DNA of 57,391 nucleotides, from assembly GCA_021814835.1 (NCBI GenBank), contig JAKAHO010000001.1, forward strand, positions 2,225 to 59,615. Direction: 5' to 3'. Positions within the stretch are counted from its first letter, which is position 1; each line of letters opens with the position of its first letter. This DNA comes from a bacterium. Lineage in GTDB: Bacteria > Patescibacteriota > Minisyncoccia > UBA6257 > GWB1-50-10. This document shows, piece by piece, positions 21,921 to 23,838 of this stretch. The notes under the pieces are model-generated. The model ran no database searches. It had not been told where the DNA came from and worked only from the letters and a program-made list of their open reading frames with translations. Position numbers and translations under genes: made by a program.

Positions 21921-22391
21921 CTATGATGGGAGCTGACTCAGGTCGAGCATGTCGCTGGCAATCTTCGTCCAGTTCATGTCTCGCACCTCGTCGCAGGTCG
22001 CGCCGCGAATCCCATCAAGCATGTCCTGCAGGTACTGCTGGTCGGAACAGCGCGCGCCGTGAAACATCTCGTGAAGCCACAGACCCTCTTCGAGTTTGCC
22101 GCCGCCCATCCCGCCAGTCACGACATTTTCTTCATTGCCGGTAACGAGGTAGACCAGGCGGCCGCCGCCCTTGTTGCTGCTCCACGCAAGCTTGTCGAGA
22201 CGAACGAGCAAATCGTAAATCCTCGACTTCGGGCCGACCAGATTCCACGGAACCGTGAGAAAAATCTGTCCGCCCCAGTCACCTTCGAAAACCAGCCAGC
22301 ATGGACCGTTTCCGAGTTCTGCCTTGCACTGATCGAGAAGACCCTTCAGACCCAACTCGTGAAAATGGGGGACGGTTTCCTGAACTTGCAT
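21921..22391 (-). CDS. hypothetical protein (GC-rich orphan 2)
   Basis: 156 aa. Start trimmed to ATG 22391 (MQVQETVPHF..), behind a GAGAGG SD. No recognisable domain. Confidence 0.55.
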   Translation of the reverse strand: MQVQETVPHFHELGLKGLLDQCKAELGNGPCWLVFEGDWGGQIFLTVPWNLVGPKSRIYDLLVRLDKLAWSSNKGGGRLVYLVTGNEENVVTGGMGGGKLEEGLWLHEMFHGARCSDQQYLQDMLDGIRGATCDEVRDMNWTKIASDMLDLSQLPS

Positions 22392-22447
22392 TTGAATGCC
22401 TCTCTGGGGCAACGCCCCCATTGAATTTTTAAAGCAAATCTAAAAAC

Positions 22448-22475
22448 ATTATAGCACAATATTAAAATTTGTCAA
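22448..22475 (-). promoter_or_regulatory. consensus sigma70 promoter TTGACA-16-TGcTATAAT
   Basis: The -35 box is at 22475..22470 and the -10 box at 22453..22448. Confidence 0.7.
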
Positions 22476-22551
22476 TCATTGGATTCAAAGCAATGTCAGC
22501 AACGAAACAACCCTGGATTTCCCGCCCTTTTTGTTGTTAAATGAAGGACAT

Positions 22552-22570
22552 TGGGGGATCGTCTAATGGT
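22552..22570 (+). repeat. tRNA-Gln 5' fragment (acceptor 5' strand to D-loop), 19/19 identical to 22638-22656
   Basis: TGGGGGATCGTCTAATGGT. Confidence 0.9.
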
Positions 22571-22637
22571 TGCGCTGCGCTTGTCACCGCACTGCGTTCG
22601 GAACCATAATTCATAAGCACGCATTTGTGCACATTGC

Positions 22638-22708
22638 TGGGGGATCGTCTAATGGTAGGACAGCGGCCTTTGAAGCCGTGAATCGGGGTTCGAATCCCTG
22701 TCCCCCAG
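22638..22708 (+). tRNA. tRNA-Gln (anticodon UUG)
   Basis: Hand-folded cloverleaf: acceptor TGGGGGA/TCCCCCA, D arm GTC..GAC, anticodon stem GCGGC/GCCGT with loop CTTTGAA, T arm CGGGG-TTCGAAT-CCCTG, discriminator G. CCA is not encoded. Confidence 0.9.
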
Positions 22709-22756
22709 CAATGTGCGGAAATGCTTATGAATTCTGTTCCCTCACTTCGTTAGCGA

Positions 22757-22811
22757 TAGGACAGCGGCCTTTGAAGCCGTGAATCGGGGTTCGAATCCCT
22801 GTCCCCCAGCA
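22757..22811 (+). repeat. tRNA-Gln 3' fragment (D-loop to 3' end), 55/55 identical to 22656-22710
   Basis: TAGGACAGCGGCCTTTGAAGCCGTGAATCGGGGTTCGAATCCCTGTCCCCCAGCA. Confidence 0.9.
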
Positions 22812-22824
22812 TCGCCAAAACAAA

Positions 22825-22847
22825 GCACCCCTTGCGGGTGTATTTTG
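22825..22847 (+). terminator. rho-independent terminator
   Basis: CACCC/GGGTG stem followed by TATTTT. Confidence 0.55.
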
Positions 22848-22909
22848 ACAACCGCAATTCTCCGTGGCATTTTGATTTTAGCTCCAATCGTATCTGACGG
22901 AGGTGGCAC

Positions 22910-23143
22910 ATGGCGAAAGTCCGATTGTGCTCAATCTGCGGGAAACCGCTCGCAGAGGTGAACTTTGCCATCAGAGATTTCTGCCCGAAAGAAACTGGCC
23001 CAGAATGGCTCTGGCGGCACATCGTCGGTGCGCTGACCATCGGTCTGAAACGGCGGAAGTACGCGGTCATCATTCCGGTCTGCCCGGAATGCGTCGAGGT
23101 GCGGCGCACGGCGAACATCGCAGGCGAGGAGGAAACCGCATGA
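22910..23143 (+). CDS. small zinc-ribbon protein
   Basis: CSIC..(49 aa)..CPEC. GGAGGTG SD 5 nt upstream. A strong terminator follows. Confidence 0.6.
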   Translation: MAKVRLCSICGKPLAEVNFAIRDFCPKETGPEWLWRHIVGALTIGLKRRKYAVIIPVCPECVEVRRTANIAGEEETA

Positions 23144-23150
23144 AAAACTC

Positions 23151-23176
23151 AAAGCCCCGAAATTCGGGGCTTTTTG
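23151..23176 (+). terminator. rho-independent terminator
   Basis: AGCCCCGA/TCGGGGCT stem followed by TTTTT. Confidence 0.8.
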
Positions 23177-23232
23177 CTTTCTCGATTTTTGCGCAAATTA
23201 CCCCAACAAAAAAGTTTTGATACAATCAACAT

Positions 23233-23838
23233 ATGAGAAAAATAATTACCACAACTTTTATAACGATGGACGGTGTAATGCAGGCGCCAGGCGGGTCGGA
23301 AGAAGACACGACAGGAGGATTTGCGTACGGCGGGTGGCAAATGAAGTTTCCATCGGACAAAATGCTTGATGCAAAACTCGCCGAATTTATGCATATGCCG
23401 TTTGAATTACTCCTCGGCAAATTCACGTACGATATTTTTGCCTCGTACTGGCCTACGGCAAAAACAGACCTTGAGGTGGCAAATCCGTTTAACAGCACGA
23501 AAAAATATGTTGTATCGCACAAATCTTTTGAGCCTTCGTGGAAAAACTCGACCTGCATCACGGGCGATGTTGTATCCGAAATCAAAAAACTCAAGGAACA
23601 AAACGGTCCCGATTTGTGGGTGTGGGGGAGCGGGAATCTCATCCAAACCCTGCTCAAAAATGACCTCATCGACAGAATGCACCTCTGGATACACCCCATC
23701 ACAATTGGCAGCGGTAAACGGCTTTTTGCGGAAGGAACACAGCCCAGAAACTTTAAACTCATCGAATCAAAAATTTCCGCGACCGGCATCATCTTCACTA
23801 CATACGAGCCGAGCGGCATCCTACCCCCAAGCAAATAG
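23233..23838 (+). CDS. dihydrofolate reductase-like (RibD C-terminal domain) family protein
   Basis: MRKIITTTFITMDGVMQAPGG.., LWVWGSGNLIQTLLKNDLIDRMHLWIHPITIGSGKRLF. Confidence 0.8.
   Translation: MRKIITTTFITMDGVMQAPGGSEEDTTGGFAYGGWQMKFPSDKMLDAKLAEFMHMPFELLLGKFTYDIFASYWPTAKTDLEVANPFNSTKKYVVSHKSFEPSWKNSTCITGDVVSEIKKLKEQNGPDLWVWGSGNLIQTLLKNDLIDRMHLWIHPITIGSGKRLFAEGTQPRNFKLIESKISATGIIFTTYEPSGILPPSK

What the first reader, a model, noticed from the sequence alone, without database searches (positions are those of the whole stretch)
22552..22811. tRNA-Gln nested inside a split second copy of itself, flanked by imperfect inverted repeats
An intact tRNA-Gln(UUG) lies at 22638-22708.

- Upstream, 22552-22570 repeats its first 19 nt exactly.
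- Downstream, 22757-22811 repeats its last 55 nt exactly (D-loop to 3' end plus CA).
- The two fragments abut perfectly, sharing a single T. Joined together they would rebuild a second complete tRNA-Gln.

The locus therefore looks like a tRNA-Gln gene interrupted in its D-loop by a 187-nt insert that carries its own intact tRNA-Gln.

Within the insert, the tRNA is hugged by imperfect inverted repeats: 22601-22634 GAACCATAATTCATAAGCACGCATTTGTGCACAT and 22711-22739 ATGTGCGGAAATGCTTATGAATTCTGTTC. They begin 3 nt and 2 nt from the tRNA ends and match at about 24 of 29 positions with a 3-4-nt indel. They could form a long precursor or processing stem, or be the ends of a tRNA-carrying cassette.

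Alternative explanations are nested attL/attR scars from integrase-mediated insertion and deletion at tRNA-Gln, or a local assembly artefact.
Basis: seen in the sequence. Interest (0 to 1): 0.6.

Follow-up and report, generated by a model that had tools for sequence, protein, structure and literature searches.

The report
Working tRNA gene nested inside broken copy
In this ultra-small (CPR/Patescibacteria) bacterium the only tRNA-Gln(UUG) gene was split in its D-loop by a 187-base protein-less insert carrying a complete replacement tRNA-Gln clamped in a long hairpin; relatives keep the same design, and I found no published description of it.

Summary

**What is there**
- An intact tRNA-Gln(UUG) lies at 22638-22708.
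- It sits in a 187-nt insert between U20 and A21 of a second tRNA-Gln, whose halves (22552-22570 and 22757-22811) are identical to the inner copy.
- The split gene keeps its own promoter and terminator.
- The closest relative sampled (G001) has the uninterrupted gene with the same promoter and terminator flanks.

**In relatives**
- Homologous inserts occupy the same D-loop site in both tRNA-Gln genes of the genus and in a sister genus.
- Their arms diverge in step with gltX.
- A 26-31-bp leader/trailer helix is kept by compensatory changes.
- The outer halves are truncated, mutated or hairpin-invaded in four of six family loci.

**Reading**
The inner gene works; the outer halves are relics. 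Where intact, gene conversion probably keeps them identical to the inner copy (inferred).

**How it arrived is inferred only**
No nuclease gene lies near any homologous copy. Small GIY-YIG nuclease genes do sit in analogous nested cassettes: in tRNA-Cys of this genome, and at the same tRNA-Gln site in another genus.

**Rivals and gaps**
Integrase scars, an intron and tandem-copy deletion are disfavoured. Earlier notes of this scan describe similar nested tRNAs in other CPR genomes.

The parts
22514..22551 (+). Promoter region of the resident (outer) tRNA-Gln gene: TGGATT-17-TTAAAT by eye, ending 9 nt before the tRNA 5' end
   Evidence: About 40 nt upstream of the outer 5' fragment align with the region upstream of the uninterrupted tRNA-Gln of relative G001 (92.7% over 22530-22570; alignment). 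The promoter reading is my inference; the consensus scan did not list it.
22552..22570 (+). Outer 5' fragment: tRNA-Gln positions 1-20 (acceptor 5' strand, D-stem 5' strand, D-loop up to G18 G19 U20)
   Evidence: 19/19 identical to 22638-22656.
22571..22757 (+). 187-nt insert (cassette). Its position is ambiguous by one T (22570-22756 or 22571-22757).
   Evidence: Absent from the G001 gene, which has the same flanks. Homologous inserts lie at the same D-loop site in G004 (two loci), G008 and G003. Its arms are single-copy in this genome.
22572..22580 (+). Small hairpin GCG-CTG-CGC at the left end of the insert
   Evidence: GCG-NNN-CGC occurs at the same place in G004 (GCGCTACGC), G003 and G004-CUG (GCGAAACGC); it is weaker in G008. 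Three of the 4 SNPs in the ENA strain variant fall here.
22581..22610 (+). Promoter-like site inside the insert: TTGTCA-18-CATAAT
   Evidence: Consensus scan, 10 of 12. G004 has TTGTCA-18-TATAAT at the same place. It is poor in G008 and in the CUG cassettes. Function not shown.
22600..22637 (+). Left (leader) arm of the long helix
   Evidence: Pairs with 22709-22741 (30 pairs, -37 kcal/mol with a GAAA loop in place of the tRNA). The distal sequence differs between genomes but pairing is kept.
22638..22708 (+). Inner, intact tRNA-Gln(UUG). It is the only UUG isoacceptor gene found in the genome. CCA is not encoded.
   Evidence: ARAGORN; Rfam RF00005 at 64.2 bits; whole-genome ARAGORN finds one Gln-UUG and one Gln-CUG.
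22709..22741 (+). Right (trailer) arm of the long helix
22742..22756 (+). Right end of the insert (CTCACTTCGTTAGCGA region; TTCCTCAC is conserved among cassettes)
   Evidence: Alignment of cassettes.
22757..22811 (+). Outer 3' fragment: tRNA-Gln positions 20-73 plus CA (D-stem 3' strand, anticodon arm, T arm, acceptor 3' strand)
   Evidence: 55/55 identical to 22656-22710. Rfam sees it as a truncated tRNA at 27.2 bits, below the gathering score.
22826..22840 (.). Hairpin terminator of the resident gene, probably bidirectional
   Evidence: The terminator scan lists it on the minus strand. The homologous hairpin follows the uninterrupted G001 gene (88.8% over 22757-22845).

Best explanation
This is the cell's resident tRNA-Gln(UUG) gene after a complete second tRNA-Gln unit was inserted between U20 and A21 of its D-loop. 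The unit has a promoter-like leader, the tRNA, and a trailer complementary to the leader.

The inner gene is the working one. It is read from the resident promoter, through the 19-nt outer fragment, and possibly also from the insert's own TTGTCA-18-CATAAT site. Transcription ends at the resident terminator, beyond the outer 3' fragment.

The ~30-bp leader/trailer helix continues the acceptor stem. It most likely clamps the inner tRNA into the right fold despite the identical competing fragments, and it offers a duplex for RNase III before RNase P and 3' trimming (inferred).

The outer halves are relics of the invaded gene. Where their homology tracts are unbroken, as here and in G004, gene conversion from the selected inner copy keeps them identical (inferred). 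Once a hairpin insertion or deletion breaks the tract, they decay.

The insertion is old. It is shared by both tRNA-Gln genes of the genus and by a sister genus, and it co-diverges with the genome. It can be lost cleanly by recombination between the direct repeats, which would explain the uninterrupted gene in G001.

How it first arrived is not shown. The likeliest route is repair of a break in the D-loop that copied or captured a tRNA-Gln unit, promoted by one of the small single-domain GIY-YIG nucleases. In these genomes such nucleases sit in analogous 'nuclease + spare tRNA' cassettes inside broken tRNA genes.
For: **Shown**
- Exact 19-nt and 55-nt fragments abut at U20.
- G001 has the uninterrupted gene with homologous promoter and terminator.
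- Homologous inserts lie at the same site in G004 (UUG and CUG genes), G008 (UUG) and G003 (CUG). A remnant (right arm plus decayed 3' fragment) lies behind G000's own tRNA-Gln(CUG).
- Arm identity tracks gltX identity: G000-G004 arms 72-73% against gltX 71%; G000-G008 arms 64% against gltX 65%.
- The nested UUG loci lie 15-34 kb from gltX in G000, G004 and G008.
- Every cassette folds into a helix of 26-31 pairs although the distal sequences differ. Other tRNAs of G000 show no comparable leader-trailer pairing (at most 4 pairs in the script check).
- Outer halves are truncated, mutated or hairpin-interrupted in G008, G004-CUG, G003-CUG and G000-C15. They are perfect only in G000-UUG and G004-UUG.
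- In each genome the inner copy matches the outer copy and the lineage's own T-arm type.
- The inner copy is the only tRNA-Gln(UUG) gene in the genome.
- RNase III and RNase P RNA are present.

**By analogy only**
- In G000 contig C18, an 83-aa GIY-YIG gene lies between a 10-nt outer tRNA-Cys fragment and an intact tRNA-Cys, with a decayed outer 3' part downstream.
- In G012, a GIY-YIG gene plus tRNA-Gln sits between outer fragments that break at the same D-loop site.
- Two of the three small GIY-YIG genes of G000 lie within 80 nt of a tRNA gene.
Against: - No GIY-YIG gene lies within the 8-kb loci fetched around the four related cassettes, or anywhere in the window apart from a decayed copy at 32.5 kb. 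The nuclease link rests on other cassettes with unrelated arms.
- Direct repeats of 55 nt only 47 nt apart should delete readily. Long persistence with perfect outer halves is awkward for a pure relic and could mean selection or repeated re-insertion.
- Gene conversion is inferred, not shown.
- G-T and A-C mismatch counts in the helix (10 against 6) do not tell RNA function from DNA function.
- The co-divergence argument rests on three genome pairs.
- No RNA data and no read-level data were available.
Confidence: 0.6

Rival explanations
1. Currently mobile, non-autonomous cassette. The 187-nt unit is a protein-less element mobilised in trans by a GIY-YIG (Ssn-like) nuclease encoded elsewhere in the genome. 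It homes into the D-loop of empty tRNA-Gln alleles and brings the spare tRNA that makes the hit survivable. On this reading the perfect outer halves mean a recent insertion with co-conversion of the short exons.
For: - A filled allele (G000) and an empty allele (G001) occur in closely related species.
- The same site is used in two different tRNA-Gln genes and, with unrelated arms, in a metagenome contig (L117) and in G012.
- Outer halves are 100% identical to the inner copy in G000 and G004.
- G000 has three intact small GIY-YIG genes, two of them beside tRNA genes.
- Ssn-type single-domain GIY-YIG enzymes cut ssDNA next to hairpins, and the authors note that the repeat-ssnA-repeat layout resembles an insertion sequence (PMC11893778).
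Against: - The arms are single-copy in the genome.
- This cassette type was found in only 4 loci of 3 other species among 185,579 species genomes, and in none of the JGI metagenome contigs.
- Arm divergence equals genome divergence, as expected for vertical descent.
- No nuclease gene is linked to any copy.
- The inner tRNA carries the same D-loop target and would have to be immune to the nuclease.
Confidence: 0.2
2. Ordinary recombination history. Three tandem tRNA-Gln copies were reduced by two independent deletions, leaving a 5' stump, one full copy and a 3' stump.
For: Tandem or multiple tRNA-Gln copies, and many contig breaks or scaffold gaps at tRNA-Gln, exist in relatives (G010, G037, G019, G002).
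Against: - The stumps abut exactly at U20 (about 2/72 by chance), and the same junction recurs in G004, G003, L117 and G012.
- The spacers on the two sides are not copies of each other. They are complementary to each other.
- The outer flanks, not the inner ones, match the single gene of G001.
Confidence: 0.07
3. Intron-like, two-for-one gene. The outer halves are also functional. After the inner tRNA is cut out by RNase P and 3' processing (or RNase III), the halves either stay joined by the long helix as a two-piece tRNA-Gln or are ligated.
For: - The outer halves are perfect in G000, G004 and nearly so in L117.
- The predicted fold pairs the outer acceptor strands and closes the inner tRNA with the long helix.
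- The insertion point, 20/21, lies in the length-variable part of the D-loop (textbook tRNA knowledge).
- Archaea make tRNAs from split genes held by complementary leaders (PMC10714607).
Against: - Outer halves are decayed in four of six family loci while the inner gene and the arms persist.
- No RtcB was found in a 95.6%-complete genome.
- Cutting out the inner tRNA would leave 67 and 48 extra nucleotides on the halves, so no precise excision is possible.
- No known ribozyme or intron family matches.
Confidence: 0.07
4. Nested attL/attR scars of integrase-mediated insertion and deletion at tRNA-Gln.
For: tRNA genes are classic integration sites, and a 3' tRNA fragment downstream of an intact tRNA is the usual attR signature. 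The genes downstream (22.9-25.3 kb) are small accessory ORFs, and the neighbourhood is not syntenic among relatives.
Against: - No recombinase lies within 5 kb. The genome has a single tyrosine recombinase, on another contig, and no serine recombinase above cut-off.
- Only 47 nt and 67 nt lie between the repeats, and these two spacers pair with each other.
- A matching 5' stump that abuts the 3' stump is not what two independent att events give.
Confidence: 0.04
5. Assembly artefact (collapsed or chimeric repeat).
For: The 55-nt repeat equals a common assembler k-mer size, and Logan contigs break there.
Against: - Both junctions need reads that span them.
- A k141 contig from another sample spans the whole block, and a separate 116.8-kb NCBI contig is identical.
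- The same architecture, with diverged sequence, occurs in assemblies from other studies.
Confidence: 0.01

Closest known systems
Free-standing GIY-YIG homing endonucleases in tRNA gene clusters (phage T4 SegB; PMC2330249; also PMC13096335 on SegB-driven amplification of tRNA loci)
   Same: Small GIY-YIG nuclease genes sit beside tRNA genes. The nuclease cuts the tRNA gene region of genomes that lack it, and repair copies the nuclease gene together with neighbouring tRNA sequence. tRNA genes become duplicated as a by-product. In G000 (tRNA-Cys, contig C18) and G012 (tRNA-Gln) a GIY-YIG gene lies directly upstream of the spare tRNA, inside a broken older copy.
   Different: The cassette in this window has no nuclease gene, and none is linked to any of its homologues. 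A complete tRNA nested in the D-loop of a split copy is not part of the SegB description as far as I read it. Cleavage was not tested here.
Ssn family of single-domain GIY-YIG site-specific ssDNA nucleases with hairpin repeats (PMC11893778)
   Same: The G000, G007, G010, G012 and G040 proteins are 80-100-aa single-domain GIY-YIG proteins, like SsnA (94 aa). Hairpins flank them. The authors note that the repeat-gene-repeat layout resembles an insertion sequence.
   Different: The paper does not mention tRNA (0 occurrences). Membership of these proteins in cd10448 was not tested here. The hairpin in this window has a whole tRNA as its loop.
Integrative elements (tyrosine-integrase islands and prophages) that insert into tRNA genes and restore the gene with a copy of its 3' part
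   Same: An element lands in a tRNA gene, the gene's function survives because the element brings replacement sequence, and a tRNA fragment is left as a direct repeat.
   Different: Here the whole tRNA is brought, not just the 3' end. The break is in the D-loop. There is no integrase, and the element is 187 nt.
Archaeal non-canonical tRNA introns and split or tri-split tRNA genes (Nanoarchaeum, Caldivirga; reviewed in PMC10714607)
   Same: tRNA genes are interrupted at positions other than 37/38. Complementary leader and trailer sequences hold the halves together. Some such introns behave as mobile elements.
   Different: This is a bacterium. No RtcB was found, and the splicing endonuclease was not searched for. 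The insert contains a complete tRNA, and the outer halves decay in relatives.
tRNA-linked repeats of E. coli (tyrT/rtT, Rfam RF00391)
   Same: Repeated units downstream of a tRNA gene end in a copy of the tRNA 3' end.
   Different: RF00391 did not match at E up to 1. Those repeats do not include a 5' stump that abuts the 3' stump, nor a leader/trailer helix around the tRNA.
Intervening sequences of bacterial rRNA removed by RNase III, and insertions in CPR rRNA genes (PMC11270868)
   Same: Extra helices in stable-RNA genes of bacteria, common in CPR, with long duplexes suited to RNase III. G000 has RNase III.
   Different: Those sit in rRNA, and the interrupted gene remains the functional one. 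Here the interrupted gene appears to be dead and the insert carries the functional copy.

Membership tests
Integrase att-site duplication at a tRNA gene | Tyrosine or serine recombinase gene in or next to the inserted DNA | tested here: not met
   No recombinase domain in 19 ORFs tested between 17.1 and 25.3 kb and elsewhere in the window. The genome has one PF00589 hit, on contig C26, and no PF00239 hit above cut-off.
Integrase att-site duplication at a tRNA gene | Direct repeat limited to one end of the tRNA, with an island between the copies | tested here: not met
   Both a 5' and a 3' stump are present and abut at U20. Only 67 and 47 nt separate them from the full copy.
Enzymatically spliced tRNA intron (bulge-helix-bulge, EndA, RtcB) | RNA ligase RtcB encoded | tested here: not met
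   PF01139 was not found in the 95.6%-complete genome; the control genomes gave hits. Absence from an incomplete genome is not proof.
Enzymatically spliced tRNA intron (bulge-helix-bulge, EndA, RtcB) | Exons kept intact in all carriers, because the spliced product is the functional tRNA | tested here: not met
   Outer halves are truncated, mutated or interrupted in G008, G004-CUG, G003-CUG and G000-C15.
Enzymatically spliced tRNA intron (bulge-helix-bulge, EndA, RtcB) | Bulge-helix-bulge motif at both junctions | tested here: inconclusive
   By eye, only a 4-bp CGCU/AGCG pairing can be drawn between the two insert ends in G000 and G004. It is not conserved in G008 or in the CUG cassettes. No dedicated BHB search tool was available.
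Group I intron in a bacterial tRNA gene | Match to group I intron models; location in the anticodon loop | tested here: not met
   Rfam at E up to 1 over 22000-23300 finds only tRNA and weak chance hits. The insert is in the D-loop and is 187 nt long.
Homing-endonuclease cassette (free-standing GIY-YIG / Ssn-like) | Nuclease ORF inside or adjoining the inserted DNA | tested here: not met
   tblastn with seven GIY-YIG proteins finds none near this locus or in the 8-kb loci around the four homologous cassettes. The feature is met in analogous cassettes in G000 contig C18 (tRNA-Cys) and G012 (tRNA-Gln).
Homing-endonuclease cassette (free-standing GIY-YIG / Ssn-like) | Filled and empty alleles of the same site among close relatives | tested here: met
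   G000 is filled. G001 is empty, with the same promoter and terminator flanks.
Homing-endonuclease cassette (free-standing GIY-YIG / Ssn-like) | The nuclease cleaves the empty target site | not testable with these tools
   This needs an in vitro cleavage assay.
MITE / non-autonomous transposon | Multiple copies in the genome, terminal inverted repeats, target-site duplication | tested here: not met
   The arms are single-copy in G000 (blastn-short). The termini share only (G/T)CGCT...AGCG(C/A). At most one T is duplicated.
tRNA-linked repeats (RtT, RF00391) | Match to the RtT model; units ending in the tRNA 3' end only | tested here: not met
   No RF00391 match at E up to 1. A 5' stump is also present.

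The most novel reading that the evidence does not exclude
The insert represents a so far undescribed class of self-compensating selfish DNA. It would be a protein-less hairpin cassette that targets one position (U20/A21) of an essential single-copy tRNA gene and carries a full replacement of its own target. Single-domain GIY-YIG (Ssn-like) ssDNA nucleases encoded elsewhere would move or maintain it. This would amount to homing by gene replacement, needing neither an intron nor an intein.
Probability: 0.3. Interest if true: 0.8.

Novelty: new variant of a known kind. Interest (0 to 1): 0.65.

Why it matters
Mobile DNA that lands in an essential gene normally survives by splicing itself out (introns, inteins) or by rebuilding the end of the gene (integrative islands). 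Here the gene's function is preserved in a third way: the insert carries a complete new copy of the gene it breaks.

If this is general, three things follow:
- It would explain why tRNA-Gln loci in ultra-small CPR bacteria are littered with tRNA fragments and so often break assemblies.
- It would give the widespread single-domain GIY-YIG (Ssn-like) nucleases a candidate natural role.
- Annotators should expect a live gene inside a dead shell at these tRNA loci.

The conserved 30-bp helix around a bacterial tRNA is also an unusual processing substrate that can be tested directly.

Tried and rejected
- **Read-level check.** I used independent public assemblies instead.
- **Phage origin.** blastn of 21-25 kb against the phage collection found no match.
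- **Other copies in the genome.** A search for the arms found none, so the insert is not a multi-copy MITE.
- **Order-wide and class-wide pattern surveys.** Hits came in only 3 of 401 and 2 of 401 genomes. The strict patterns miss diverged lineages, so these numbers are floors, not frequencies.
- **First metagenome scan.** Zero hits.
- **Second metagenome scan.** The pattern was too loose. Of the 80 loci fetched (the scan reported 120 and stopped at its limit), two had a tRNA-Gln-like context and only one (L117) was a real nested tRNA-Gln.
- **Automatic alignment of the cassettes.** MAFFT and RNAalifold recovered only the proximal helix, because the distal arms are too diverged to align. I folded each cassette separately instead.
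- **Telling RNA from DNA function of the helix.** Counting G-T against A-C mismatches gave 10 against 6, which is uninformative.
- **Decayed outer halves in G040.** The alignment scores are below the shuffle maxima, so I dropped that claim. G040 is used only as an example of a long leader/trailer helix next to a GIY-YIG gene.
- **Gene synteny around the tRNA.** There is none within 1.5 kb among genus members. Only the promoter-tRNA-terminator unit and the regional linkage to gltX are shared.
- **Literature.** Four full-text searches found no description of nested tRNA genes in CPR bacteria.
Full report
**1. The observation**

The region 22552-22811 reads: 19 nt of tRNA-Gln (positions 1-20), 67 nt (arm A), a complete tRNA-Gln(UUG) at 22638-22708, 48 nt (arm B), then 55 nt covering tRNA positions 20-73 plus CA.
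- ARAGORN and Rfam call only the inner gene as a full tRNA (64.2 bits). Rfam sees the 3' fragment as a truncated tRNA at 27.2 bits, below threshold.
- The repeat finder confirms that both fragments are exact, at 19/19 and 55/55.
- The fragments overlap by one T. The block is 260 nt and the rebuilt gene is 73 nt, so the insert is 187 nt, lying between U20 and A21.
With the tRNA replaced by a tetraloop it forms 30 pairs at -37 kcal/mol.
- The whole region folds far better than shuffles, with z = -5.9.

**2. It is not an artefact**

- A 116.8-kb NCBI contig (GCA_027346635.1) is identical over 3.5 kb, including the 260-nt block.
- A MEGAHIT k141 contig from another sample (ENA ERZ27236853) spans 22540-23295 with 4 SNPs and keeps both 55-nt copies. 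Its k-mer is longer than the repeat.
- Logan contigs of two runs cover the left junction and stop or start inside the 55-nt repeat, as de Bruijn contigs do at repeats.
- The same architecture, with diverged sequence, occurs in assemblies from other studies.

**3. The organism**

The genome is 575,637 bp in 39 contigs and 95.6% complete. Record titles of relatives name Candidatus Paceibacterota and other CPR labels.
- It has one tRNA-Gln(UUG) gene, the inner gene here, and one tRNA-Gln(CUG) gene.
- Other tRNA genes show no comparable leader-trailer pairing, at most 4 pairs in the script check.

**4. The empty site**

In G001, the closest relative sampled (gltX 77% identical), tRNA-Gln(UUG) is uninterrupted.
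- Its upstream ~40 nt and its downstream terminator align with the flanks of the outer halves of the window, not with arms A and B (92.7% and 88.8%).
- So the outer halves are the resident gene, with its promoter and terminator, and A-tRNA-B is an insert.

**5. Relatives with the same insert**

Homologous inserts share a small GCG-NNN-CGC hairpin at the left end, a CGTTCGGAAAT motif, the long helix with TTTGTG opposite CGGAAA, ATTGC|tRNA|GCAAT, and TTCCTCAC on the right. They lie at the same D-loop position in four loci:
- G004 tRNA-Gln(UUG);
- G004 tRNA-Gln(CUG);
- G003 tRNA-Gln(CUG);
- G008 tRNA-Gln(UUG), in a different genus.

Other points on distribution:
- Behind G000's own tRNA-Gln(CUG) there is a remnant: a B-like arm followed by a decayed 3' fragment that starts at TAGGAC.
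- A scan of 185,579 species genomes for the proximal-stem signature found only these four loci. The JGI metagenome contigs gave none.
- With unrelated arms, the same design at the same site occurs in a metagenome contig (L117; 5' fragment 20/20, 3' fragment 48/51).
- With a nuclease gene, it occurs in G012.

**6. Age**

| Pair | Arm identity | gltX identity |
|---|---|---|
| G000-G004 | 72-73% | 71% |
| G000-G008 | 64% | 65% |

- The UUG and CUG cassettes within G004 are 63-67% identical.
- The nested UUG loci lie 15-34 kb from gltX in G000, G004 and G008. Genes within 1.5 kb are not shared.
- This fits an old insertion, inherited vertically at both tRNA-Gln loci, with later losses. It rests on few genome pairs.

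**7. Which parts are under constraint**
- The helix is kept in every cassette at 26-31 pairs, although the distal sequence differs.
- The outer halves are perfect in G000 and G004-UUG.
- In G008 the 5' half is unrecognisable and the 3' half is cut after 38 nt.
- In G004-CUG the acceptor part of the 5' half is mutated and two small hairpins sit in the 3' half.
- In G003-CUG the 3' half is absent.
- At G000-C15 the outer halves are reduced to a stump.
- So the inner gene and its arms are what selection keeps, and the outer gene is dispensable.
- In every genome the inner copy has the same lineage-specific features as the outer copy. The T-arm is CGGGGTTCGAATCCCTG in G000, G001 and G006, and CTAGGTCCGATTCCTAG in G004 and G007. 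The anticodon is CUG inside CUG.
- For an old insertion, this calls for gene conversion between the copies. The selected inner copy acts as the usual donor, and the resident fragments are able to rewrite the inner copy after a move between isoacceptor genes. This is inference.

**8. Expression (inferred)**
- The resident promoter, conserved with G001, reads into the 19-nt fragment and the insert.
- The insert has a promoter-like TTGTCA-18-CATAAT site. G004 has TTGTCA-18-TATAAT there; it is poor elsewhere.
- No terminator follows the inner tRNA, so the trailer includes arm B and the outer 3' fragment up to the resident hairpin at 22826-22840.
- The transcript therefore holds two competing partners for each half of the inner tRNA. 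The long helix would fix the correct pairing and offer an RNase III substrate.
- RNase III and RNase P RNA are encoded. RtcB was not found.
- G-T and A-C mismatch counts do not separate an RNA role from a DNA hairpin role.

**9. How it arrived (not shown)**
- No nuclease gene is linked to this cassette type, and no recombinase is near.
- The same genome holds an analogous cassette with a nuclease on contig C18: a 10-nt outer tRNA-Cys fragment, an 83-aa GIY-YIG gene whose stop codon lies in the tRNA, an intact tRNA-Cys, then a decayed, hairpin-interrupted outer 3' part.
- A second small GIY-YIG gene lies 70 nt upstream of tRNA-Gln(CUG).
- GIY-YIG genes abut tRNA-Gln in G007, G010, G012, G040 and G421.
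- With 39 tRNA genes in 576 kb, a random gene would lie within 100 nt of one about 2% of the time, so two of three is unlikely by chance (my rough estimate).
- Single-domain GIY-YIG proteins of this size were recently shown to be site-specific ssDNA nucleases tied to hairpin repeats (PMC11893778).
- T4 SegB is a GIY-YIG homing enzyme acting in a tRNA cluster (PMC2330249).
- The most economical origin is break repair in the D-loop that copied or captured a tRNA-Gln unit. Whether a nuclease made the break remains open.

**10. Rivals**
- Two independent deletions in a tandem array do not explain the exact abutment recurring at U20 in several lineages, nor spacers that pair with each other.
- Integrase scars lack an enzyme, an island and a reason for the matching 5' stump.
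- An intron-like functional outer gene is contradicted by the decay in relatives, by the lack of RtcB, and by the 67 and 48 extra nucleotides left after the inner tRNA is removed.
- A currently mobile, trans-mobilised cassette remains the main live alternative. It shades into the best explanation.

**11. Novelty**

Four literature searches found nothing on nested tRNA genes in CPR bacteria. Earlier notes of this scan report the same kind of structure on other CPR DNA, so it has been seen before within the scan. I tested the claims that matter here on this genome's own relatives.

I rate it a new variant of a known kind. It is an element that targets a tRNA gene and preserves the gene's function, but it does so by carrying a whole replacement gene.

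Noticed in passing
L037:1402-1720 (G000 contig C18:5071-5400, minus strand): tRNA-Cys is nested in the same way, but with a nuclease. The order is: outer 5' fragment GGCCGCGTAG, an 83-aa GIY-YIG ORF whose stop codon TAG lies in positions 8-10 of the inner tRNA, an intact tRNA-Cys, then about 100 nt further a decayed outer 3' part interrupted by GC-rich hairpins.
   Followed up: partly
L038:1082-1350 (G000 contig C15:5289-5557, minus strand): Three things lie downstream of tRNA-Gln(CUG) and its terminator. First, a ~140-nt module that starts with an inverted T-arm (GGATTCGAAC) and ends in GTTCGATT plus the tRNA 3' acceptor strand. Second, a B-arm remnant of the D-loop cassette. Third, a decayed 3' fragment. 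The same T-loop module follows tRNA-Gln(UUG) in G001, G006, G002 and G019. It looks like a second, different element type that uses the T-loop.
   Followed up: partly
L028 and L031 (G010 C8:118400-119300; G004 C5:1900-2700): Short, near-perfect palindromes of 18-21 nt (CCTGCCTGCGCAGGCAGG, CTGCCTACCGGCAGGCAGG, CTTGCCCCGAAGAAAGCGGGG) are inserted in the D-arm, anticodon arm and T-arm of the dead tRNA-Gln copies. G002 has longer hairpin elements (GGCTCCCTGTTT...AAACAGCAGTG) in the D-arm and T-loop.
   Followed up: no
window 22572-22580: In the strain variant from ENA ERZ27236853, three of the four SNPs in 756 nt fall in or beside the 9-nt hairpin at the left end of the insert (TGCGCTGCGC becomes CGCACTACGC). 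The fourth is in the resident promoter region.
   Followed up: no
window 22448-22475 (minus strand): A perfect consensus promoter, TTGACA-16-TATAAT with an upstream TG, drives the orphan gene 21921-22421 divergently from the tRNA-Gln locus.
   Followed up: no
G000 contig C26:19883-20541: The genome's only tyrosine recombinase (312-aa open frame) ends about 60 nt from tRNA-Leu(UAG). It could be XerC/D or an integrase at a tRNA site.
   Followed up: no
G000 contig C32:5468-5541: ARAGORN calls a tRNA-Ile with anticodon UAU, which is unusual for bacteria. They normally read AUA with a lysidine-modified CAU tRNA.
   Followed up: no
one search hit table (several relatives): Many tRNA-Gln hits lie within a few hundred bases of contig ends (G003 C16, G005 C1, G007 C31, G009 C14, G013 C35, G019 C1, G025 C43, G027 C2, G036 C23). 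Scaffold gaps sit between tRNA-Gln copies in G037, G019 and G421. tRNA-Gln repeats seem to break assemblies across this order.
   Followed up: no
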